Positions 4,324 through 55,185 of a stretch of 64,000 nt of DNA are shown here, piece by piece. A program made the position numbers and the translations under genes. The DNA lies in assembly GCA_965220125.1 (NCBI GenBank), contig CBDCPB010000004.1:2383366-2447365 (forward strand), given 5' to 3'. This DNA comes from Dehalococcoidia bacterium. Lineage in GTDB: Bacteria > Chloroflexota > Dehalococcoidia > UBA2979. Positions within the stretch are counted from its first letter, which is position 1, and every line of letters begins with the position of its first letter. The notes under the pieces were generated by a model. It did not search any database. It had not been told where the DNA came from and worked only from the letters and a program-made list of their open reading frames with translations.

Positions 4324-4533
4324 CAGCGGCCCCTCCTCGCTACTTCCGCGCGTCGCCGCGCGCGCCTCGCTGAGCCTCGGCGGCGGCTTGTGCGCCGGAG
4401 TCGCGTGGCAGCACCCAAGTCTAGGGCAGTGAACGCGAGGGTTTGCTCAGGCTGGCGCTGGTCGTGGTGTGGTTTGACGGTCCACTCCACCGCCCTCAGG
4501 CTGGCTGTCGCCAGGCCGTGAAGGAGGTTCGCC

Positions 4534-46110: not shown

Positions 46111-46290
46111 CGCCTTCGCGAGCCCGCTCTCCGGGCTTCGGGAACCCAGCGCCCCCCTGCGACGTACTCTACCTATGACTACTCGGGCAGGGCGGCGCTC
46201 CGCACGGACTCCGCAACCGGGAGGCGCCGGATGAGAGCGCTGATCCTCGCAATAGGCATCGTCCTGTCCGTCGCCGCCCTTGCTGCCTCC
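46026..46290. repeat. segmental duplication copy A (hemL 3' end + intergenic promoter + signal-peptide start), paired with 48745-49050
   Basis: ~80% identity to 48745-49050, including a degenerate copy of the hemL C-terminus ([14 protein letters not shown]...ASEA*) and the shared start 'atgagagc(g/a)(c/t)tgatcctcgcaat(a/c)ggcatcgtcctg'. Confidence 0.65.
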
Positions 46291-48702
46291 AGCGCCCTCG
46301 CGTCAGCGTCGCCGGCGCCGTCCGGCGATTCGCAGCCCGCTGTCGTTGCCCAGCCCCACGACACGTCGCCGCCGGGCAGTTCGTTCACCTCGATCAGCGC
46401 CGGGACGCTCCACAGCTGCGGGCTCAGGACCGGCGGTTCCGTCGTCTGCTGGGGCTGGGACTTCTATGAGCAGTCCACGCCGCCCGCTGGTTCCTTCACC
46501 TCCGTTAGCGCCGGGGGGTTCCACAACTGCGGGTTGAAGGCCGGCGGCCTGGCAGAGTGCTGGGGCTGGGGTGGGTTGCGCCAGTCGACGCCGCCCAGCG
46601 ATCCCCTCGCGTCCGTCAGTGCCGGGCGGTTCCACACCTGCGGAGTGACGAGCGAGGGTGCGGTCCTCTGCTGGGGCAGGAACAACGAGGGCCAGACCAC
46701 GCCGCCTGACGGCTCGTTCGCCTCGGTCAGCGCCGGAGGAGACCACAGCTGCGGGGTGACAACGGAGGGGGCCGTGCGCTGCTGGGGCAAGAACGACCAG
46801 GGTCAGGCCACCCCGCCTGACGGCTCGTTCGCCTCGGTCAGCGCCGGAGGAGACCACAGCTGCGGGGTGACGACGGAGGGCGCGGTGCGCTGCTGGGGCA
46901 AGAACGACGATGGCCAGGCCACGCCGCACCTCGGCGCCTTCAGCTCAGTCAGTGCCGGTGACGATCACAGTTGCGGCGTGAGGACCGACGAGGCAGTCGT
47001 CTGCTGGGGCAGCGACGAATGGGGCCAGGTCCCGCCGCCCGGCGGCGCCTTCGGCTCCGTCAATGCTGGAGGGAGCCACAGCTGCGGGGTCGAGACCGGC
47101 GGCGCTGTCGTGTGCTGGGGCCTGGATTCACATGGACAGTCCACGCCCCCAGGCCGCGCCTACCTATCGATCAGCGTCGGTCATGAGCACACCTGTGGGG
47201 TGCGCGCTGATGGTTCGCTGCTCTGCTGGGGCCGGAACAACGAGGGCCAGGCCACGCCACCCGACGGCGCCTTTACCTCTGTCAGCGTCGGCATGTGGTC
47301 CAGTTGCGCGGTGAAGACCAACCGGTCTGTCTCGTGCTGGGGCAGGAACGACGACGGGGAGGCCTCGCCGCCGGAAGGTTCGTTCACCTCGGTGACCGTT
47401 GGGCCGAGCCATGCTTGCGGGCTGACGACGGACATGGCCGTCGTGTGCTGGGGTGACGGATCCTTCGGCAAGACCTCGCCGCCAGCCGGATCCTTCACAT
47501 CCATAGGCGCCGGCTGGGCCCTCACCTGCGGCGTGAAGACCGACAGCTCGATCGCGTGCTGGGGCTGGGATGTGGATGGCCGAACTTTGGTCCCCGCTGG
47601 CTCGTTCGCCTCGATCAGCGTTGGTGCGCACCACGCTTGTGGGGTGAGAACCGACAGCACGGTCGCATGTTGGGGCAGGAACGACCACGGGGAGGCCTCG
47701 CCGCCGGCCGGCTCGTTCACCGCCGTCAGCGCCGGCGCGGAGCACAGTTGCGGGATCAAGACCAATGGCTCGGTCGTGTGCTGGGGCGGCGACATCTCCG
47801 GCGAGACCTCGCCGCCCGGGGGCGCCTTCAACTCCCTGAGCGCCGGATTGCACTACAGCTGCGGTGTGAAGGCCGCCGGTCCAGCCGTGTGCTGGGGCCG
47901 AGGGGTCAATGGCCATGCCTTGCCGCCGCACGAGGCCCACCCGCCCGCCGGGGCCTTCAGCTCCCTCAGCGGCGGACCTTCTCACACCTGCGGGTTGAAG
48001 CCCGACGGTACCGTCGCCTGCTGGGGAAGGGACGCCGATGGGCGGGTCTTGTCGCCGGTCGGCTCGTTCATCTCCCTCAGCGCCGGGTTGCGCCAGACCT
48101 GCGCGGTGCGGACCGACGGCGCCATCGCGTGCTGGGGATGGGGCGCTGGAGTGCGAGGCTCGCCGCCTGGCGGCTCGTTCAGCTCAGTCAGCGTCGGGAC
48201 TGACCACGCCTGCGGCGTACGGACGGACGGCTCAGTCCGCTGCTGGGGCGGGAACTGGGATGGTCAAAGTTCGCCGCCCGACGACTCATTCACCTCCGTC
48301 AGCGCCGGCGGGAACCACACCTGTGGGTTGCGGGCCGACGGTTCGGTCGTCTGCTGGGGTTGGGACGCCCAGGGCGAAGCCACGCCGCCGACCGGTTCGT
48401 TCACGGCCCTCAGCGCCGGGTGGGACCACACATGCGGGCTATTGGCCGATGGCTCGGTCGCCTGCTGGGGAGGTAACGATCACGGAAAGGCAGTGCCGCC
48501 GGCGGGCTCCTTCAATTCCGTCAGCGCAGGATGGCACCACACCTGTGGCCTGCGGACGGACGGTACCGTTGCATGCTGGGGCTACGACTACCACGGCCAG
48601 TCTTCGCCCCCCGATGGCTCCTTTGCTTCCGTCAGCGCCGGTTCAGTCCACAGCTGCGGGGTGAAGACGGACGGGACCGTTGTGTGCTGGGGCATGGACT
48701 GA
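46231..48702 (+). CDS. secreted RCC1-like (BLIP-II/beta-propeller) repeat protein, 823 aa with ~26 tandem repeats
   Basis: Signal peptide then ~29-aa units 'GSF(T/A)SVSAGxxHSCGVxTDGSVVCWGxNxxGQ(S/A)TPP', the RCC1/alpha-tubulin-suppressor repeat signature. Confidence 0.8.
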   Translation: MRALILAIGIVLSVAALAASSALASASPAPSGDSQPAVVAQPHDTSPPGSSFTSISAGTLHSCGLRTGGSVVCWGWDFYEQSTPPAGSFTSVSAGGFHNCGLKAGGLAECWGWGGLRQSTPPSDPLASVSAGRFHTCGVTSEGAVLCWGRNNEGQTTPPDGSFASVSAGGDHSCGVTTEGAVRCWGKNDQGQATPPDGSFASVSAGGDHSCGVTTEGAVRCWGKNDDGQATPHLGAFSSVSAGDDHSCGVRTDEAVVCWGSDEWGQVPPPGGAFGSVNAGGSHSCGVETGGAVVCWGLDSHGQSTPPGRAYLSISVGHEHTCGVRADGSLLCWGRNNEGQATPPDGAFTSVSVGMWSSCAVKTNRSVSCWGRNDDGEASPPEGSFTSVTVGPSHACGLTTDMAVVCWGDGSFGKTSPPAGSFTSIGAGWALTCGVKTDSSIACWGWDVDGRTLVPAGSFASISVGAHHACGVRTDSTVACWGRNDHGEASPPAGSFTAVSAGAEHSCGIKTNGSVVCWGGDISGETSPPGGAFNSLSAGLHYSCGVKAAGPAVCWGRGVNGHALPPHEAHPPAGAFSSLSGGPSHTCGLKPDGTVACWGRDADGRVLSPVGSFISLSAGLRQTCAVRTDGAIACWGWGAGVRGSPPGGSFSSVSVGTDHACGVRTDGSVRCWGGNWDGQSSPPDDSFTSVSAGGNHTCGLRADGSVVCWGWDAQGEATPPTGSFTALSAGWDHTCGLLADGSVACWGGNDHGKAVPPAGSFNSVSAGWHHTCGLRTDGTVACWGYDYHGQSSPPDGSFASVSAGSVHSCGVKTDGTVVCWGMD

Positions 48703-48744: not shown

Positions 48745-49050
48745 ACGTCTCCCGCTCGCCCACGACGAGGCGCTGATCGAGCGCACCGTCGAGGCCGCCA
48801 CCGGGGCGCTCCGCGCGGCGGCCTCGGAGGCGTAGCGCCCGCGCGCTGTACGGGCCTTCGGGAGACCCGCGGTCCCGTCGCTGCGTGCAGCCCGCGCGCG
48901 GGGGTCGAGGGAACCGGTCGCCGTTCTGGGACGTACCTATCTGCAACTCCGGATACACGGGGCGAACGCTCCGCACCGGCTCCGCAGGGAGGCCCCAGAT
49001 GAGAGCATTGATCCTCGCAATCGGCATCGTCCTGGCCCTCGCCGCCCTCG
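48745..49050. repeat. segmental duplication copy B (degenerate hemL 3' end + promoter + signal-peptide start)
   Basis: See copy A; contains an extra ~45-bp insertion relative to copy A. Confidence 0.65.
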
Positions 49051-50102
49051 CCGCGTCCACGTTCGCCCGGGTCTCAGGGCGCGACAGCTCGCGGGCGCGG
49101 GCGGTGTCCGGCGCGCTTACCCTGGCGGCGCTCGCGGCCGCGTTGCTCTTGCTCGCCTGCAGCGACGATGACGACTACGAGAGCTCCGCGCCGCAAGCGG
49201 CGCCCTCGTCGGCGCGGATCCAATACGCCGTCACCGCGGCGCCAACCGCGGTCCCGCCGGAGGCCGGTGGCTCGGCCAACCCCAACGACCGGCCGCTTCC
49301 CCTCATGTTCTTCGAGGGACACGGCGTCAATCCGTTCATCGATGCCGACGAGGACGCGCTCTCGACCTTCGCGCTGGACGGGGACACCGCGTCCTACGAG
49401 ATCCTCGCGCTCTACCTCGACCAGAACTCCCTGCCGCCCCCGGACGCAGTGCGGGTCGAGGAGTTCATCAACAGCCTGCCGCAGGACTACCCGGCCGCCG
49501 AGGGCGCCCTCGGGCTGCACCTCGACGCCGCGCCTTCGCCGTTCGGGGAGGAGGGCTACGTGCTGCTGCGAGTTGGCGTCAGCAACCCCGCGCCGCGGAC
49601 CGAGCGCGGTCCGGTCTCGCTGATCTTCGTCGTCGACGTCTCCGGCTCGATGGAGGCCGACAACCGGATCGGCGTGGCCAGGGACGTCATCGCCGGACTC
49701 GCCGGGATGATGACCGCGCAGGACCGCGCCGCCATCGTCACCTACGGCGCCGAGGCCAGCCTCGTCAGCGGCTTCGAGGACGGCGATCGCCGTCAGGAGA
49801 TCGTGACCGGCGCGCGCGCGCTCCGCACGGGTGGCAGCACGTTCGCCGAGGATGGACTGCGCCTGGCCTACGATCTGGCCGGCGACGAGCTTGAGCGCGG
49901 CCAGCAGGTGCGCATCGTGTTGCTCTCCGATGGCGTCGCCAACGTCGGCGCGACCGGACCCGACTCGATTCTCGGGTTGGTCGACCAGCAGGCGCAGCGC
50001 CAGGCCACGCTCACCTCGATCGGCGTCGGCATCAGCGGCAACTACAACGACGTCCTGCTGGAGGCGCTCGCCAACCGCGGCAACGGCACGTACCACTTCC
50101 AT
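48999..50102 (+). pseudogene. vWA-domain (YfbK/BatB-like) secreted protein gene, 5' part, interrupted by an IS
   Basis: Signal peptide identical to the RCC1 gene's, then a vWA MIDAS region ('LIFVVDVSGSM', 'IVLLSDGVAN', 'LTSIGVGISGNYNDVLLEALANRGNGTYHF'). The frame is lost at the IS junction at 50103. Confidence 0.7.
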
Positions 50103-51646
50103 GAGAGTCGTCTGATCCGCAAGGGCCGACGTGGCGGCCGCCTGCGCCGTCCTAGCGAGCGCGCCTCCCATCCGCGGCCCTGTGGTGGTCGTCGGTGCCG
50201 ATGCGAGTGGTCCCGTCGTGTCGTCCCCGGGAAGTCGTGTTGGCCATGCTTCCATTCGCACTCGTCGAGGGGCCGCTCCGGGCCCGGTGCATGATGGACA
50301 ACCTGTCTCCAGGATGTGGGCGCTGCCATCTACCTGCCGTCCTCGTTGGGACCAGTGGTCGCCGCAGTCGCCCGCGTGTCGGCATCTGTCGCATCCTCCG
50401 AAGCCCACCGGCCGCCCGGTCGCCCCGCTCCTCGCGTGCTGCCTGCTGCTACGCCGCCTCGGCCGCGCGCGCCTGGCGCAACGGCTCGTAGACCTCGCCG
50501 CTCTTCCAGAGCGCGAGCATCAGCACCGCTAGTCGCCTCGCGACCGCGACGACGGCACGCTTCTTCGCATTGCCGGCCCCCGACTCCGCGTAGCGCAGCC
50601 CCCATCGCCTGAGGTCGCTATCGGGGCCGAACGGGCCCAGGATGTAGTGCGCGGCCTGGCTCAGCACCCGGCGCAGCGCCACGTCCCCGTCCTTCGTGAT
50701 CCGGAGCTGGGGCTGCCGGTCGCCGGAATCGCGGCTTCTGGGCACCAGTCCGAGGTAGGGGCCGATCTCCCGGTTCTTCGGGAAGCGGGTCGGGTCCTCG
50801 ATGGTGAGGACGAAGGTGAGCGAGGTGATCGGACCGACGCCCGCGATCTGCCGGAGCGCGCCGGTCTCCGTGTAGCGCTCGCACATCGCGGCGATCTCCG
50901 CGTCGGCTTGGCGGATCTCCCCGGTCAGCTGCTCGATCTGCCGCAGCACCGGCAGCAGCGCCGGGCGTAGCTCCCCCGGGATGTGCCCGGCGACCGCACG
51001 GTGGAAGGCCGGCGTCGTGCAGCTCGGGAGCGCCGCGCCCCACGCCTTCACCGCGCCCCGGACGTGGTTGATGAGCGCGGTCCTCGCCCGCATCAGCGCG
51101 TCGCGGCTGCGGAGGACCTGGAGGTCCGCCTGTGCCGTGGCGCCCCGGTGCCGGATGGGAAAGAGGAGCTTCGGGTCGTATCGTCCGAGCCGTGCGAGGT
51201 GCTCGGCATCGGAGCGGTCATTCTTGCGCTGGCTGCGCGCGATCAGCTTTACCTGCCTCGGGTTGGCGACTATGACGTCGTGCCCGAGCGTCGAGAACAT
51301 CCGGCTCAGCCACGGGGACCGCGGCCCCACCTCCAGCACCACCCGCGCGTCCTGCAGTGGCGCGAGCGCCCGGGTGAGCGCCGCGGTCGTGGTGCGGACT
51401 CGCTCCTCCCGGAGGATCTCCCCGTCGTCCCCGAGGATGCAGAGGTGGCTGTAGCGGTCGCTCACGTCGATCCCGATGGTCACGAGCTCCGCGTCCCCCA
51501 CCCTCCTGCTCTCTGCGACTGCTGTACCCTGTGCCATGGTCGGTCTCCTACCTCGCTCAGGCTCGTCAGAGCCGTTCCTGGCCCACCTACGTGAGGCCGT
51601 CTTCTTGGGGGGAAGTATCCCCTCTGAGGAGGGGACCGACTCTCAT
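50103..51646 (-). mobile_element. IS110-family (IS1111-like subgroup) insertion sequence with 10-bp terminal inverted repeats, inserted in the vWA gene
   Basis: Termini 'atgagagtcg' (50101-50110) and its reverse complement 'cgactctcat' (51637-51646). Joining the flanks restores '...NGTYHF|HPIYLADRE...' of the vWA protein. 116-nt 5' region and 343-nt 3' non-coding region relative to the recombinase. Confidence 0.7.
50449..51537 (-). CDS. IS110-family DEDD transposase/recombinase (IS1111-like)
   Basis: 'LVTIGIDVSDRYSHLCIL', 'VVLEVGPRSPW' RuvC-like N-domain and C-terminal Tnp domain with 'IAGVGPITSLTFVLTIEDPTRFPKNREIGPYLGLVPRSRDSG'. Confidence 0.9.
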   Translation of the reverse strand: MAQGTAVAESRRVGDAELVTIGIDVSDRYSHLCILGDDGEILREERVRTTTAALTRALAPLQDARVVLEVGPRSPWLSRMFSTLGHDVIVANPRQVKLIARSQRKNDRSDAEHLARLGRYDPKLLFPIRHRGATAQADLQVLRSRDALMRARTALINHVRGAVKAWGAALPSCTTPAFHRAVAGHIPGELRPALLPVLRQIEQLTGEIRQADAEIAAMCERYTETGALRQIAGVGPITSLTFVLTIEDPTRFPKNREIGPYLGLVPRSRDSGDRQPQLRITKDGDVALRRVLSQAAHYILGPFGPDSDLRRWGLRYAESGAGNAKKRAVVAVARRLAVLMLALWKSGEVYEPLRQARAAEAA

Positions 51647-52228
51647 CCCATCTACCTGGCCGACCGCGAGGCCGCCAACCGCTACCTTGAGGAGAGCGCC
51701 CAGGGCGTCTTCACCGAGGCGGCCCGCGACGCCCGCATCCAGGTCGAGTTCAACCCGGAGACGGTTCGCAAGTACCGGCTCATCGGCTACGAGAACCGCG
51801 CCGTCTCCGACGAGGACTTCCGCGACGACTCGCTGGACTTCGGGGAGCCCGGCTTCGCCCAGGACGCGACCGCGCTCTACGAGCTGCGCCTCGAAGATGG
51901 GGCCGCCGCGGACGGCGTGCTGGCCACCGTGCGGCTGCGCTGGCTCGACCCGCAGACGGGCGAGCCGACCGAGATCGAGGCTGGCATCCCGGTAGCCGAG
52001 GTGGCCGCCGAGATCGGATCGGCCAGCCCGTACTTCCGCCAGACCGCCGCCGCCGCCGAGTTCGCCGAACTGCTGCGCAAGTCCTTCTGGGCGCAGTGCG
52101 GCAGCCTCGATGCGGTCTCGGAACTCCTCGACGGCGTGAGCGCCGAGCTGGGCGAGCAGCGGGACTACCGGGAGCTGGTGCGCCGCGTGGGCGCTGCCTC
52201 GGAGCTGTTCGAGCCCTACTGCTCGTAG
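51647..52228 (+). pseudogene. vWA-domain protein gene, 3' part (DUF3520-like C-terminal region) downstream of the IS insertion
   Basis: 'PIYLADREAANRYLEESAQGVFTEAARDARIQVEFNPETVRKYRLIGYENR' matches the post-MIDAS region of YfbK-like proteins and continues the 48999-50102 reading frame once the IS is removed. Confidence 0.65.
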
Positions 52229-52371: not shown

Positions 52372-53508
52372 ATGCAGCTTACGGTCCAGCAGGAAGATCT
52401 CCACCGCGGGCTCAGCGCGGTATCTCGCGCCGTCCCCGCACGCTCGCCCCTTCCCATCGCCGGCCACATCCTGCTCGAAGCGCGCGACGAGGGCCTCACG
52501 CTCTCGGCGACGGATGCCGAGACGATCGCGATCACCTACAGGATCGACGCCGCCGTCGGGGAGGCGGGGGCGATCACGCTGCCCTCGCGGCTGCTCTCCG
52601 ACTTCGTCGCCTCGCTCCCCCAGCAGCCGATCAGCCTCTCGCTCGCCGAACGCTCCCGCCAGGTCAGCCTCTCCTGCGCCCGTAACGAAGCCTCGATCGG
52701 CGGGCAGAGCGCCGATGACTTCCCGCCCATCCCGCCGGTCGAGGACGGCGACTCGCTGGCGCTTGACTCCGCCGCGCTGCGACGCGCCATCAACCAGGTG
52801 GTGTTCGCCGCCGCCACCGACAACTCGCGGCCCGTGCTCACGGGTGTCCACTTCGGAATCAAGAGCGCGCAGTTGCGGCTCGCTGCCGCCGACGGCTTCC
52901 GCCTCGCGGTCCACACGATGGATCTGGGGGACGCGCCTGCCGAGCGCGAGGCGATCGTGCCGGCGCGCGCCCTCGGCGAACTCTCGCGGATACTCGCGGA
53001 GGTCGACGAGCCGGTGGAGATGCGCTTCAACCCAGTCGGCACGCAGGTGCTCTTCGACCTCGGCCACGCGACGCTCAGCGCCACGCTGCTGCAGGGCACG
53101 TTCCCCAACTACGACCAGCTGATCCCGAGCTCGCACGCGACCCGCACGGAGATCGCCGTGGCCGAGTTCATGCGAGAGACGCGCATCGCCTCGATCTTCG
53201 CGCGCGACGGCTCCGGCATCGTGCGGCTCGTCGCCACGCCCGGCGAGGACGCCGCACCCGGCCGCCTGCTGATCACCGCGCGCGCCGAGGAATTGGGCAA
53301 CAACGAGGGCGAACTGGACGCCATGGTCGACGGCGAAGAGGCGAAGATCGCCTTCAACAGCCGCTACCTGACCGAGGTCCTGCAAGTCATCGACGCCGAC
53401 CGTGTCGCCATCGAGACCAGCTCCCCCTCAAGCCCCGGCGTCCTCCGCCCCGTCGGCGACGACCGCTACACCCACGTCGTCATGCCCATGTTCGTCGCCT
53501 GGTCCTGA
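52372..53508 (+). CDS. dnaN: DNA polymerase III beta sliding clamp
   Basis: 378 aa with a three-domain clamp pattern ('LSAVSRAV', 'PVLTGVHF', C-terminal 'VMPM(F)V'). Confidence 0.9.
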   Translation: MQLTVQQEDLHRGLSAVSRAVPARSPLPIAGHILLEARDEGLTLSATDAETIAITYRIDAAVGEAGAITLPSRLLSDFVASLPQQPISLSLAERSRQVSLSCARNEASIGGQSADDFPPIPPVEDGDSLALDSAALRRAINQVVFAAATDNSRPVLTGVHFGIKSAQLRLAAADGFRLAVHTMDLGDAPAEREAIVPARALGELSRILAEVDEPVEMRFNPVGTQVLFDLGHATLSATLLQGTFPNYDQLIPSSHATRTEIAVAEFMRETRIASIFARDGSGIVRLVATPGEDAAPGRLLITARAEELGNNEGELDAMVDGEEAKIAFNSRYLTEVLQVIDADRVAIETSSPSSPGVLRPVGDDRYTHVVMPMFVAWS

Positions 53509-53542: not shown

Positions 53543-55185
53543 GCCCTCCGAGATTGTCGACGAGCAGCGATTTTGTCAGTGCAAGAGAGCAGCGACTTTG
53601 TCAGTCCCGCCGTCTCCGTCGGAGGATGCCGCGGCGCCGGTCTGGCGTCCAGGCACGCCGTTGGCCCGGACGTAGCTGCTGACGGTGTCGCGGGAGATCC
53701 CGAGCAGCCTGGCGGTCGCCCGCATCGAGAGCCCCTGCAGTCGCGCCTGCTGGATCGCCTTCCAGCGGGCGAGCTGCCGGGGTGTGGGAGCGCGGAGCTG
53801 CTTGCTCCCGGTCTCGGGTCTGGTGGTAGCACCGTTGCTCGCCACCTTGACCGCGGTAGAGGCAGCAGGGAGCGCGGGGAGCCGCCGGGGTGCTCCTCCG
53901 GAGCCGAGCCCTGAGGCGATGCGCTCGTGGTCGGGGTTCCGGGCCAGCTCGGAGCGCGCCGCTCTCAGCACCCCGGCGCGCGGCGGCGCCTCGCGCGAAC
54001 GGATCGTCTCCCCCTGGTGCAGGACGGAGAGCTCGCCGCCCGGGCGTTCCAGCACCTCGACCCGCGCCCCGGCGTAGCTGGTCCGCTCGGGCCCGGGCAG
54101 CAGCTGGAGCGTGCGCCAGCGGTACTTGACCGTGTTGTCGCGCGCGACGGTGCGCGGGTGCCGGAAGCCGAGGACGGCGCCGAGGTCGAGCGCGGGGTCG
54201 AGCGGGCGGTAGGCCGGCTCGGGCTCTGCCGCCGGGACCCGGAAGCGGGCATTGAAGCGCGGCAGGAAGCGCTCGAGCACGGCCTGCGCCTCGGCGATGG
54301 TGGAAGCCGAGGCGTCGCTGAGTTCGGTCACCAGGCGGTCCTGGAGCGTCCCTGCGGCACGTTCCACGCGGCCCTTGGCCTGTGGTGAGCGGGCGAAGAT
54401 CTGGGTGATCCCGAGTTCCCGCATCGCCCGTGCGAATTGGGTTGCGACCTTCAGGCCCCGCCGTCCGTCGGAGGAGGCTTTGAAGACGCCGTGGCGGTCG
54501 CTGTAGAGGGCGAGCGGGATGCCGCAGCGCCGGACGATCTCCTCCAGCAGCAGGAAGTAGCCGCGCGCGTCCTCGACGGGGCGGAAGAGGGCGTGCACGG
54601 CTGCGCCGGTCGCATCGTCGACGGCGAGCAGCAAGGCGAAGCGCGGGCCGCGCTCCTCGAGCCAGGCGTGGTGGCTGCCGTCGATCTGCAGCAGCATCCC
54701 CTCGCGGGGCATGCGCTCACGCCGGACACGGTGCTCGGGGGGCCGGCGGCGGCGGGGACTCGCGATGCCGGCCCGCGCCAGGATCCGGCGGACCGTCCAA
54801 TTGCTCACGTCCAGGCCCTCGTGCTCCCAGAGCAGCTCGGCGAGGTGGGTGTGGTTCGCTCCCGGGTAGCGGGTGCTGGCGAAGCGCACCACGGCCGAGG
54901 CGACATCGGCCGGGACGGCGTTGTGCGGACGGCGCCTCCGGTTGCCGTGCTCCAGCGCCGCCGCTCCGCGCGCGCGGTAGGCGGCGAGGAGCCGCCACGC
55001 GTGTCGCTCGCTGAGGCCCAGGATCTCGGCGGCCTGCGCGGCCCGCAGATCTCCGGCCATCACCCCTTCGAGTACGTAGCGTCGTGCTTCTTCGGACTGC
55101 TGCACCTGTCACCCCCTGCTCGCTGGCTGGGGACTGACAGAATCGCTGCTCCGTTAACTACTGACCGAATCGCTGCTCAACGACA
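53543..55185 (-). mobile_element. ISNCY-like insertion sequence with ~55-bp imperfect terminal inverted repeats and 7-bp target-site duplication
   Basis: TIRs 'TGTCGACGAGCAGCGATTTTGTCAGT...GAGCAGCGACTTTGTCAGTCCC' (53543-53597) and reverse complement at 55129-55185, each holding two 'gagcagcgattNtgtcagt' sub-repeats. TSD 'ccgagat' at 53536-53542 and 55186-55192. Confidence 0.7.
53576..55105 (-). CDS. DDE transposase (rve integrase core; ISNCY-family-like) with N- and C-terminal HTH domains
   Basis: N-terminal 'AAEILGLSERHAWRLLAAYRARGAAALEHGNRRRRP', rve core ('LLQIDGSHHAWLEE...LLLAVDDATG...LYSDRHGVF'), C-terminal 'LSMRATARLLGISRDTVSSY'. Confidence 0.75.
   Translation of the reverse strand: MQQSEEARRYVLEGVMAGDLRAAQAAEILGLSERHAWRLLAAYRARGAAALEHGNRRRRPHNAVPADVASAVVRFASTRYPGANHTHLAELLWEHEGLDVSNWTVRRILARAGIASPRRRRPPEHRVRRERMPREGMLLQIDGSHHAWLEERGPRFALLLAVDDATGAAVHALFRPVEDARGYFLLLEEIVRRCGIPLALYSDRHGVFKASSDGRRGLKVATQFARAMRELGITQIFARSPQAKGRVERAAGTLQDRLVTELSDASASTIAEAQAVLERFLPRFNARFRVPAAEPEPAYRPLDPALDLGAVLGFRHPRTVARDNTVKYRWRTLQLLPGPERTSYAGARVEVLERPGGELSVLHQGETIRSREAPPRAGVLRAARSELARNPDHERIASGLGSGGAPRRLPALPAASTAVKVASNGATTRPETGSKQLRAPTPRQLARWKAIQQARLQGLSMRATARLLGISRDTVSSYVRANGVPGRQTGAAASSDGDGGTDKVAALLH

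What the first reader, a model, noticed from the sequence alone, without database searches (positions are those of the whole stretch)
50103..51646. Second IS110-family element (IS1111-like) with 10-bp terminal inverted repeats, splitting a secreted vWA gene; its 343-nt 3' tail is a candidate bridge-RNA locus
The vWA ORF stops making sense at 50103, and a C-terminal YfbK-like fragment resumes at 51647. Removing 50103-51646 restores '...GNGTYHF|HPIYLADRE...' in frame. The ends are 'atgagagtcg' and its reverse complement 'cgactctcat'; small terminal inverted repeats of this kind are a hallmark of the IS1111 subgroup. Unlike the first element, the long non-coding region (343 nt) is 3' of the recombinase, which is where IS1111-type elements carry their guide RNA. 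The window therefore holds both architectural classes of IS110 bridge systems.
Basis: partly seen in the sequence, partly recalled or inferred. Interest (0 to 1): 0.55.

Follow-up and report, generated by a model that had tools for sequence, protein, structure and literature searches.

The report
IS1111-type insertion sequence with bridge RNA

Summary
The core of the finding holds. Window 50449-51537(-) encodes an intact IS110-family DEDD/Ser recombinase, and it interrupts a vWA/YfbK-like gene.

The ends were misplaced. Twenty-nine intact homologues and a syntenic empty site read TACCA-CT-ACCTG, so the insertion is 1,556 bp (50098-51653) with a CT core at both joints. The 10-bp inverted repeats are subterminal, the IS1111 hallmark.

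The 351-nt 3' non-coding region holds a ~133-nt structured RNA (50240-50372, minus strand) with six helices; 17 of 31 pairs show compensatory changes.
- Its first internal loop carries two guides that match opposite strands of the flanks plus the core. Across 25 guide types, including elements found independently in metagenomes, each element's own guide fits its own flanks (p 1e-11 to 1e-18) and ranks first at 16 of 17 sites.
- Its second loop matches the element's terminal extensions plus the core. This evidence is weaker.

This is an IS1111-type bridge/seekRNA system: a new member of a known kind, of modest interest. RNA expression and activity were not tested.

The parts
48999..50097 (+). 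N-terminal part of the interrupted secreted vWA/YfbK-like gene. It ends inside codon TAC, whose first base is T50097.
   Evidence: Pfam vWF_A, VWA_2 and VWA. Aligns to intact homologues up to ...GNGTYH. Collinear with the empty site in L057 up to window 50097.
50096..50097 (.). Core dinucleotide CT (AG in recombinase orientation), copy at the right-end joint.
   Evidence: The empty site reads TACCA-CT-ACCTG. The occupied site has CT at both joints.
50098..51653 (-). The whole insertion sequence, 1,556 bp including one core copy. The recombinase gene and the RNA are on the minus strand.
   Evidence: Empty-site comparison. End-to-end alignment to related copies L001-L008.
50098..50100 (-). Right-end terminal extension (GGA in recombinase orientation), lying outside the subterminal repeat. 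It is the donor sequence read by the 3' strand of loop 2.
   Evidence: GGA versus AGA covaries with AUGGA versus AUAGA in the RNA.
50101..50110 (.). Subterminal inverted repeat, right-end arm (ATGAGAGTCG on the + strand).
50117..50122 (-). -35-like hexamer TTGCGG. Relatives outside Dehalococcoidia have TTGACA/G/T here. It lies 17 nt before GAAG|AT, a -10-like hexamer that exists only when the right end is joined to the left end. This would be a junction promoter (inferred).
   Evidence: Inference only; the simple promoter scan of the linear sequence found nothing.
50124..50139 (-). Conserved right-end hairpin GGCCGCCACGUCGGCC. Function unknown.
   Evidence: Conserved in nearly all family members.
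50240..50372 (-). Bridge (seek) RNA core, about 133 nt with helices P1-P6 and two internal loops. The transcript ends are not known.
   Evidence: Covariance model hit of 154 bits at 50228-50376(-), the only strong hit in the window. 94.9% of cells paired, 17 of 31 pairs with compensatory change, 0 of 500 shuffles reach this. Coordinates.
50353..50363 (-). Loop 1 (target-binding), 5' strand GGCGACCACUG. ACCA-CU is identical to the bottom strand of the right target flank plus the core, so it pairs with the top strand (recombinase orientation).
   Evidence: Own versus foreign flanks: mean longest match 7.2 versus 3.3 nt, p = 2.5e-18.
50327..50338 (-). Loop 1, 3' strand GGCAGGUAGAUG. CAGGU-AG is identical to the left target flank plus the core. 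The following AUG(G) matches the left-end extension, as a 'handshake' guide would.
   Evidence: Own versus foreign flanks: 6.1 versus 3.2 nt, p = 3.5e-11.
50291..50301 (-). P4 5' strand plus loop 2 5' strand (UUGUCC AUCAU). UCCAUC matches the bottom strand of the left-end extension plus the first core base at 5 of 6 positions. Probable donor guide.
   Evidence: cognate 3.17 of 4 versus 2.2-2.3, p about 2e-5. This is weaker evidence. P4 shows compensatory changes.
50246..50257 (-). Loop 2 (donor-binding), 3' strand GAAUGGAAGCAU. AUGGA-AG is identical to the right-end extension plus the core.
   Evidence: In the 18 types tabulated the five nucleotides match the element's own right-end extension in 17, with one single-base mismatch. 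The remaining listed types agree by inspection.
50449..51537 (-). Recombinase gene, 362 aa, intact. DEDD = D24, E69, D107, D110. Serine S271 lies in GLVPRSRDSG.
   Evidence: Pfam. NCBIfam NF033542 'IS110 family RNA-guided transposase', 216.7 bits against a cutoff of 140. Aligned to IS621 and ISCro4 chains. Aligned to ISEc11 and IS5708.
51637..51646 (.). Subterminal inverted repeat, left-end arm (CGACTCTCAT on the + strand).
51647..51651 (-). Left-end terminal extension (ATGGG in recombinase orientation).
51652..51653 (.). Core dinucleotide CT, copy at the left-end joint.
51654..52228 (+). C-terminal part of the interrupted vWA/YfbK-like gene (…YLADREAANRYL… to the stop).
   Evidence: Pfam YfbK_C. 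Homologue alignment. Collinear with L057.

Best explanation
This is an IS1111-type member of the IS110 family, 1,556 bp including one core copy. It inserted at a CT dinucleotide inside a vWA/YfbK-like gene.

It encodes a DEDD/Ser recombinase. In the 351-nt region downstream of that gene it encodes a bridge RNA (seekRNA) of about 133 nt with two internal loops.
- Loop 1 binds the target. Its 5' strand (ACCA-CU) pairs with one strand of the flank on one side of the core. Its 3' strand (CAGGU-AG, followed by AUGG) pairs with the other strand of the opposite flank. After strand exchange the AUGG would pair with the incoming element end.
- Loop 2 binds the donor, which is the junction of the excised circular element. 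Its 3' strand (AUGGA-AG) and 5' strand (UCCAUC) match the short terminal extensions that lie outside the subterminal inverted repeats, plus the core.

The RNA thus brings the circle junction and the target together, and the recombinase exchanges strands at the shared core. Joining the ends probably also creates a promoter (TTGCGG-N17-GAAG|AT) that reads into the recombinase gene and the RNA.

Shown here: the insertion boundaries and core; the protein family and catalytic residues; the conserved RNA structure; the covariation between guides and flanks.

Inferred: RNA expression and transcript ends; circle formation; the junction promoter; present-day activity of this copy.
For: Boundaries and core: 29 intact homologues and a syntenic empty site.

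Protein:
- Pfam PF01548 and PF02371.
- NF033542 at 216.7 bits against a cutoff of 140.
- The SG serine aligns with the catalytic-serine region of IS621 and ISCro4.
- DEDD motifs align with ISEc11 and IS5708.

RNA structure:
- One covariance-model hit of 154 bits in the window.
- On 19 distinct sequences, 94.9% of cells are paired and 17 of 31 pairs show compensatory change. No shuffle of 500 reaches this, and slid controls give 28-46% paired.
- On the uncorrected MAFFT alignment, 99.4% are paired and 4 pairs are compensatory.

Target guides:
- In the window, the guides match CAGGT-AG and AG-TGGT, 11 contiguous bp across the core.
- Across 25 guide types, own guide versus own flank gives 6.1 versus 3.2 nt (p = 3.5e-11) and 7.2 versus 3.3 nt (p = 2.5e-18).
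- Elements found independently by a metagenome scan, taken alone, give p = 1.6e-5 and 1.5e-8.
- An element's own guide ranks first of 25 at 16 of 17 sites.

Donor guides:
- The AUGGA/AUAGA-AG strand agrees with the element's own right-end extension.
- The 5' strand covaries with the left-end extension.

The layout matches published IS621 and IS1111 descriptions (PMC11208158; PMC11208160; PMC11187229).
Against: - There are no expression data, and no promoter or terminator was found in the linear element.
- No Rfam family matches, and the model does not detect the ISEc11 or IS5708 non-coding regions. The RNA assignment therefore rests on comparative evidence alone.
- The window copy matches its target over only 5+2+4 bp, shorter than several relatives (up to 9-10 nt on one side).
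- The donor-loop evidence is thin. The ends are nearly invariant, and the 5' strand matches at only 3-6 of 6 positions.
- The structure-fitted alignment favours the structure it was built on.
- The sequences are phylogenetically related, so the p-values overstate independence.
Confidence: 0.88

Rival explanations
1. The element is: 50103-51646 with truly terminal 10-bp inverted repeats. The vWA gene of this organism would then simply carry four extra residues (FHPI) at that spot.
For: Removing 50103-51646 does keep the reading frame. The repeats are perfect.
Against: - All 29 intact homologues, down to 53% identity, lack the four residues.
- The syntenic empty site lacks the 12 nt.
- Every related element carries the same extensions (ATGGN ... 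RGA) in unrelated flanks.
- A CT core sits at both joints.
- The RNA guides align to the flanks only in the corrected frame.
Confidence: 0.02
2. Only target recognition is RNA-guided, by a short seekRNA corresponding to loop 1. The element ends would be recognised by the protein through the subterminal inverted repeats. The matches of loop 2 to the terminal extensions would be structural or coincidental.
For: - The donor-side evidence is weak. Only one variable position (G/A) tracks the right end.
- The 5' strand matches imperfectly.
- Siddiquee et al. found that an 82-nt seekRNA carrying only the target matches suffices for ISEc11. Reprogramming required changing the flanks of the donor, not its ends (PMC11187229).
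Against: - AUGGA-AG / AUAGA-AG is 7 nt identical to the element's own end plus core in nearly every type, and the G/A state switched at least twice on the tree.
- The left-end extension variants ATGAG, TTGAT and ATAGG come with matching changes in the 5' strand.
- P4, P5 and P6, which frame loop 2, are conserved with compensatory changes.
- Durrant et al. report donor-binding nucleotides in IS1111 bridge RNAs (PMC11208160).
Confidence: 0.1
3. The copy in the window is a dead relic. It would be an old insertion whose recombinase and RNA are no longer active or expressed.
For: - There is a single copy in 64 kb.
- The -35-like box is degenerate (TTGCGG, 3 of 6) compared with TTGACA in other lineages.
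- There is no expression evidence.
Against: - The ORF is full length, with all five catalytic residues.
- Both ends, both repeats and all six RNA helices are intact.
- The guides still match the flanks.
- The insertion is absent from a relative that is 92-95% identical in the flanking DNA, so it is recent.
Confidence: 0.25
4. The conserved 3' region is not an RNA. It would be a DNA-level feature such as recombinase binding sites or a transcription terminator, and its resemblance to the flanks would be a by-product of how ends are copied.
For: The minimum-free-energy fold of the region is no more stable than shuffled sequence (z = 0.03).
Against: - Compensatory changes preserve six helices.
- The flank-matching segments sit on the two strands of an internal loop and read opposite DNA strands. 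This is the published bridge RNA/seekRNA geometry.
- They vary freely between elements while the helices stay fixed.
Confidence: 0.03

Closest known systems
IS1111-group insertion sequences with a 3' seekRNA/bridge RNA (ISEc11, ISPa11, ISKpn4; Siddiquee et al. 2024, PMC11187229; Durrant et al. 2024, PMC11208160)
   Same: - DEDD recombinase with the GL-P----SG motif.
- Subterminal inverted repeats with short terminal extensions.
- A short left and a long right non-coding end (114 versus 351 nt).
- The guide RNA is encoded downstream of the recombinase gene.
- The segment complementary to the top strand lies 5' of the one complementary to the bottom strand.
- Each element or subgroup has its own target.
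- Relatives often sit in repeated sequences (about 30 copies at one position of a repeat in MAG CBDFIB01).
   Different: - The host is an uncultured Dehalococcoidia (Chloroflexota) lineage.
- The protein is only about 25-30% identical to ISEc11 and IS5708 and is slightly longer (362 aa against the 330-350 quoted).
- The RNA has no detectable sequence or structure similarity to the ISEc11 or IS5708 tails.
- The donor loop here is a simple internal loop. Durrant et al. describe a multi-loop for many IS1111 orthologues.
IS621 bridge RNA system (IS110 group; Durrant et al. 2024; Hiraizumi et al. 2024, PMC11208158)
   Same: - A two-loop RNA, with one loop for the target and one for the donor.
- Each loop has two guides that read opposite strands and both cover a CT core.
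- The 3' strand of the target loop continues into bases that match the donor end ('handshake').
- The catalytic Ser and the DEDD residues are conserved.
- Viewed with the CT strand as top, the order of guides in loop 1 is the same as in IS621.
   Different: - The RNA lies 3' of the recombinase gene, not 5'.
- The RNA and the gene are transcribed antisense to the CT strand, so the core reads AG in recombinase orientation.
- The subterminal repeats are long (10 bp) rather than 2-3 bp.
- The proteins align confidently only over the C-terminal domain (35.5 bits).
ISPpu9 of Pseudomonas putida (IS110 family with a downstream sRNA gene and modular circles; PMC12288879, abstract seen)
   Same: - An sRNA gene lies downstream of the transposase gene.
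- Extra copies of the RNA module exist without the transposase gene. Here these are tandem RNA + right-end modules in related loci L037, L035, L040 and L010.
   Different: Those extra modules are seen in relatives, not in the window copy. I did not read the paper's body or compare sequences.

Membership tests
IS110 family (DEDD recombinase insertion sequences) | Recombinase with an N-terminal DEDD RuvC-like domain (PF01548) and a C-terminal Tnp domain (PF02371) | tested here: met
   PF01548 E = 2.6e-19 and PF02371 E = 1.7e-18. NF033542 'IS110 family RNA-guided transposase', 216.7 bits against a cutoff of 140.
IS110 family (DEDD recombinase insertion sequences) | Catalytic D-E-D-D plus the conserved Ser of the SG motif | tested here: met
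   D24, E69, D107, D110 and S271. These were placed by alignment with IS621 and ISCro4 chains and with ISEc11 and IS5708. Assignment is by alignment only, not by structure.
IS110 family (DEDD recombinase insertion sequences) | Site-specific insertion at a short core dinucleotide present at both joints, with no longer target duplication | tested here: met
   Empty site TACCA-CT-ACCTG against the occupied site TACCA-CT-[IS]-CT-ACCTG.
IS1111 group | Subterminal inverted repeats of 7-17 bp with terminal extensions | tested here: met
   A 10-bp perfect repeat, set in by 3 nt and 5 nt (plus the core) from the true ends. The definition is quoted in PMC11208160 and PMC11187229.
IS1111 group | The longer non-coding region lies downstream of the recombinase gene | tested here: met
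   351 nt downstream against 114 nt upstream.
IS1111 group | GL-P----S(t)G motif in the C-terminal domain | tested here: met
   GLVPRSRDSG at residues 263-272. Motif taken from PMC11187229.
IS1111 group | Transposase related over its full length to IS1111-group transposases (phylogenetic placement) | tested here: inconclusive
   phmmer scores:
- IS5708, 93.6 bits, near full length.
- ISEc11 (shown to be IS1111 family in PMC11187229), 54 bits.
- IS621, 35.5 bits, mostly C-terminal.
- The window's other IS110 gene, no hit.

No tree was built with the ISfinder set, and no comparison was made with IS1111 itself.
Bridge RNA / seekRNA | A conserved structured non-coding RNA within the long non-coding end | tested here: met
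   Six helices. 17 of 31 pairs show compensatory change and 94.9% of cells are paired. Family members were recovered from genomes and metagenomes by the covariance model.
Bridge RNA / seekRNA | Two segments in one internal loop that match opposite strands of the target on either side of the core and change with the target | tested here: met
   p = 3.5e-11 and 2.5e-18. The independent metagenome set gives 1.6e-5 and 1.5e-8. Own guide ranks first at 16 of 17 sites. In the window the matches are CAGGU-AG and ACCA-CU.
Bridge RNA / seekRNA | A second loop complementary to the donor (the element ends across the circle junction) | tested here: inconclusive
   The 3' strand AUGGA-AG equals the right-end extension plus the core, and its G/A state tracks the element's own end. 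The 5' strand matches the left-end extension at 3-6 of 6 positions. The ends vary little, so the test has little power.
Bridge RNA / seekRNA | The RNA is expressed, binds the recombinase and is required for transposition | not testable with these tools
   There are no transcript or biochemical data. The promoter and terminator scan was negative.
Rfam RNA families | A match at gathering score to a curated family | tested here: not met
   No family matched in 50050-51700, even at E <= 10, other than chance-level hits.

The most novel reading that the evidence does not exclude
In this lineage the 3' module (bridge RNA plus right end) may behave as a unit that duplicates on its own. Related loci carry two or three tandem copies of the whole module (L037) or of the right end alone (L035, L040). 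The joints fall at internal AG sites, as if the element's own RNA-guided recombinase had recombined the right-end core with pseudo-targets inside the element. If so, this would be a built-in way to multiply and then diversify guide modules. The guide-swapped relatives seen here (nearly identical elements with different loop-1 strands) would be its products.
Probability: 0.15. Interest if true: 0.5.

Novelty: new member of a known kind. Interest (0 to 1): 0.3.

Why it matters
- It is a worked natural example of RNA-guided insertion. It comes with an empty-site control, exact ends, a 2-bp core and a readable guide-to-target code. It lies in a phylum (Chloroflexota/Dehalococcoidia) that is poorly represented among characterised IS110/IS1111 elements.
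- The family recovered here has 25 guide types with their targets. It could serve as a small test set for bridge RNA prediction in the IS1111 group, and as a source of further programmable recombinase orthologues.
- For genome annotation, the vWA/YfbK-like gene is a recent pseudogene. The subterminal repeats must not be taken as the element ends.
- None of this changes current understanding of the mechanism.

Tried and rejected
- **First frame for the guides.** I first read the conserved flanks AGATGGS...RGAAG as a conserved target with an AT core, and took the RNA segment AAUGGAAG for a second target guide. The homologue alignment and the empty site showed these bases belong to the element, so I redid the analysis around the CT core.
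- **Single-sequence folding.** The minimum-free-energy fold of the window RNA is uninformative (z = 0.03). It pairs the guide loops with each other.
- **RNAalifold on the raw MAFFT alignment.** It found only P1, P2 and P5, because of misaligned distant members.
- **Helix P4.** It could not be scored on the MAFFT alignment because of a one-column register shift. It was scored on the model-fitted alignment instead.
- **Rfam.** Gathering and permissive thresholds gave nothing relevant.
- **Covariance model on the ISEc11 and IS5708 loci.** Nothing found.
- **Promoter and terminator scan of the linear element.** No promoter-like site; the single terminator-like match lies on the plus strand inside the recombinase gene and is not relevant.
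- **Search for the ideal target of the window guides (GCAGGTAGTGGTCGCC).** No exact site in the window or the loci, and only matches with 2-3 mismatches.
- **Look-up of the closest intact vWA homologue, P0001.** Not on record; P0002 was used instead.
- **First register for the loop-2 5' strand test.** It was off by one and gave no signal. Corrected.
- **phmmer and tblastn with this recombinase.** Neither finds the window's other IS110 gene. That gene was found through the Rfam hit and Pfam.
Full report
**What is at the coordinates**

The window has a 362-aa ORF on the minus strand at 50449-51537. It carries the DEDD_Tnp_IS110 and Transposase_20 domains. It also passes NCBIfam's model for 'IS110 family RNA-guided transposase' at 216.7 bits against a cutoff of 140.

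On the plus strand the element is flanked by two parts of one gene. The part from 48999 carries vWF_A/VWA domains, and the part ending at 52228 carries YfbK_C. blastn, tblastn, phmmer and a covariance model find no second copy in the window.

All read ...GNGTYH|YLADREAA....

The closest relative whose encoding contig could be retrieved (P0002, 94% identical, MAG OZ252046.1; the 97% homologue P0001 was not on record) is syntenic, with 92-95% nucleotide identity across the neighbouring genes. Its empty site is GGCACGTACCA-CT-ACCTGGCC. The window reads TACCA-CT-TCC-ATGAGAGTCG ... CGACTCTCAT-CCCAT-CT-ACCTG.

It follows that:
- The insertion is 1,556 bp including one copy of a CT core, at 50098-51653.
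- CT stands at both joints.
- The 10-bp repeats are subterminal, with extensions of 3 and 5 nt outside them.

That is the defining layout of the IS1111 group, as described in PMC11208160 and PMC11187229. The non-coding ends are 114 nt upstream and 351 nt downstream of the recombinase gene.

**Relatives**

A scan of species-representative genomes gave 56 loci, almost all from Dehalococcoidia MAGs, at 45-96% protein identity and often in many copies per genome. In recombinase orientation they all share one end structure: AG + 5-nt extension + ATGAGRG... on the left, and ...YTCAT + RGA + AG on the right. Their flanks are unrelated.

**The RNA**

The 3' non-coding regions align over about 140 nt, with invariant blocks separated by hypervariable blocks. 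The invariant blocks form helices:
- P1: GGCGACUGC / GCAGCGCC.
- P2, P3 and P6: hairpins.
- P4 and P5: stems.

On the plain MAFFT alignment of 14 sequences, 99.4% of cells pair and 4 pairs show compensatory change.

I built a covariance model from this alignment. It gives one strong hit in the window, at 50228-50376 on the minus strand (154 bits). It also finds the more distant Planctomycetota and Gemmatimonadales elements.

On the model-fitted alignment of 19 distinct sequences:
- 94.9% of cells pair.
- 17 of 31 pairs have changes on both sides.
- No shuffle of 500 reaches the observed values.
- Sliding the partners drops pairing to 28-46%.

The caveats are that this alignment is fitted to the structure and that the sequences are related. 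Rfam has no matching family.

**Loop 1 reads the target**

P1 and P2 enclose an internal loop, and the hypervariable blocks are its two strands. In the window:
- The 5' strand GGCGACCACUG contains ACCA-CU. This is identical to the bottom strand of the right flank plus the core.
- The 3' strand GGCAGGUAGAUG contains CAGGU-AG, identical to the left flank plus the core. It is followed by AUG(G), which matches the first bases of the left-end extension ATGGG.

Together this gives 11 contiguous base pairs across the core, read on opposite strands.

The same holds element by element, although the guides differ. Examples on one strand are GCGCGAA-CU in L001, GGAGCCUGU-C in L008, CAGGCUG-CU in L011 and CACCCA-CU in L039. 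Each matches its own flank.

As an independent test, I scanned metagenome contigs for the two strands of P1 and filtered the hits with the model. This gave 13 further family members. For those with an identifiable end, the guides again match their own flanks. Examples are CUAAUUG-CU in L101, CGGGGCC-CU in L114 and GCUCAGCGG-CU in L086.

| Comparison (25 guide types) | Own flank | Foreign flank | p |
|---|---|---|---|
| Left flank, mean longest match | 6.1 nt | 3.2 nt | 3.5e-11 |
| Right flank, mean longest match | 7.2 nt | 3.3 nt | 2.5e-18 |
| Left flank, metagenome set alone | 6.1 nt | 3.3 nt | 1.6e-5 |
| Right flank, metagenome set alone | 7.5 nt | 3.2 nt | 1.5e-8 |

An element's own guide pair ranks first of 25 at 16 of 17 sites with both flanks known. 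The window element scores 13 against 9 for the best foreign guide.

**Loop 2 matches the element's own ends**

P4 and P5 enclose a second internal loop.
- Its 3' strand GAAUGGAAGCAU contains AUGGA-AG, the right-end extension plus the core. Where relatives have the extension AGA instead of GGA, the RNA has AUAGA-AG. In the 18 types tabulated, the five nucleotides agree in 17, with one single-base mismatch. The other listed types agree by inspection.
- Its 5' side, UCCAUC, matches the bottom strand of the left-end extension plus the first core base at 5 of 6 positions. Variant extensions come with matching RNA changes: ATGAG with CUCA, TTGAT with AUCA, and ATAGG with UCUA. Cognate identity is 3.17 of 4 against 2.2-2.3 (p about 2e-5).

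Because the ends vary little, this is suggestive rather than strong.

**Comparison with the known mechanism**

In IS621, one guide of the target loop stays bound to the top strand right of the CT core. After strand exchange it pairs with the incoming core and two donor bases, the 'handshake' (PMC11208158).

If the CT strand of the window (the plus strand) is taken as top, loop 1 here has the same order and the same continuation into donor bases. The difference is that the RNA and the recombinase gene are transcribed from the other strand, and the RNA lies 3' of the gene. This agrees with the report that the order of the top- and bottom-strand matches is reversed between IS110 and IS1111 elements, and that in IS1111 members the top-strand match lies 5' of the bottom-strand match (PMC11187229, abstract). 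That reading assumes their top strand is the recombinase-sense strand.

**The protein**

The SG serine (S271 in GLVPRSRDSG) aligns with the corresponding region of the IS621 and ISCro4 chains. D24, E69, D107 and D110 align with the DEDD motifs of ISEc11 and IS5708.

phmmer scores are:
- 93.6 bits to IS5708 and 54 bits to ISEc11, an experimentally studied IS1111 member.
- 35.5 bits to IS621, mostly over the C-terminal domain.
- No hit at all to the other IS110-family gene in the window.

This favours the IS1111 group, but I built no tree.

**A probable junction promoter (inference)**

In family members outside Dehalococcoidia, a TTGACA/G/T hexamer lies 16-18 nt upstream of GAAG at the right end. 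Joining the right end to the left end completes GAAGAT, a -10-like hexamer with A at position 2 and T at position 6. The window element has TTGCGG-N17-GAAG|AT. The linear element shows no promoter by a simple scan. This fits the general idea that such elements are expressed from the circle, but it is untested here.

**State of this copy**

The ORF, both ends and all RNA helices are intact, and the guides still fit the flanks. The insertion is absent from a close relative. It therefore looks like a recent, possibly still active, insertion that inactivated the vWA/YfbK-like gene. Its guide-to-target match (5+2+4 bp) is shorter than in several relatives, and no perfect match to its guides occurs in the window. 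The vWA site may therefore be a near-cognate target rather than the preferred one.

**Verdict**

The ends, the 'terminal' nature of the repeats and the reconstructed joint needed correction.

The window does contain a second IS110-family gene, at 33706-34929(+), 407 aa. I did not examine where its RNA lies.

The element is a new member of a known kind, and interest is modest.

Noticed in passing
window 33706-34929 (+), and 34530-34611 (-): This is the other IS110-family gene of the window (407 aa; DEDD_Tnp_IS110 and Transposase_20; NF033542 at 194.6 bits). The only Rfam gathering-score hit in the window, Actinobacteria sRNA Ms_AS-4 (66 bits against a cutoff of 50), lies antisense inside its coding sequence. 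The element's ends and RNA were not examined.
   Followed up: partly
window 53576-55105 (-), next to dnaN at 52372-53508 (+): A 509-aa ORF with several helix-turn-helix domains of transposase type lies directly after the DNA polymerase III beta-clamp gene. The syntenic relative (L057) has a DDE_3 transposase gene at the corresponding place. This neighbourhood seems to collect mobile elements.
   Followed up: no
window 46231-48702 (+) and 48999 onward (+): The 823-aa repeat protein upstream and the interrupted vWA protein start with the same signal-like peptide, MRALILAIGIVL. The large repeat protein's counterpart in L057 has no Pfam hit on record.
   Followed up: no
L037 4134-4897; L035 about 4340-4490; L040 about 4380-4460; L010 4322-4470: Related elements carry tandem extra copies of the 3' module. 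L037 has three copies of the RNA + right end, L035 has three tandem right ends, L040 has two, and L010 has a second partial RNA. The joints fall at internal AG sites. This suggests recombination of the right-end core with pseudo-targets inside the element.
   Followed up: partly
L011-L033, L036, L043, L044, L047 (MAG CBDFIB01): About 30 copies of one element type all sit at the same position of a repeated host sequence (...GGATCAGGGGTTTTTC-AG | IS | AG-CAGCCTGCTAG). That sequence matches the element's guides over 7 and 9 nt. This is a repeat-targeting expansion, like IS1111 members that target REP or attC sites.
   Followed up: partly
L006 about 2873-2892 and L054 about 2874-2893: Two different element types in two different MAGs share the same 20-nt left flank, AGTTAGCCGGGCGCTCTGGC. 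Both lack the usual AG + ATGGN extension. Unexplained.
   Followed up: no
L052 (OZ252046.1), flanks around 2885 and 3928: This internally deleted copy has flanks GAGGT-AG ... AG-TGGTCGAG. These fit the guides of the window element (CAGGU-AG and CGACCA-CU) better than its own guides. Either the flanks or the guide modules may have been exchanged between copies.
   Followed up: no
window 50124-50139 (-), and the same place in nearly all relatives: A conserved hairpin, GGCCGCCACGUCGGCC, lies just upstream of the -35-like hexamer in the right end. It is conserved even in distant family members. Function unknown.
   Followed up: no
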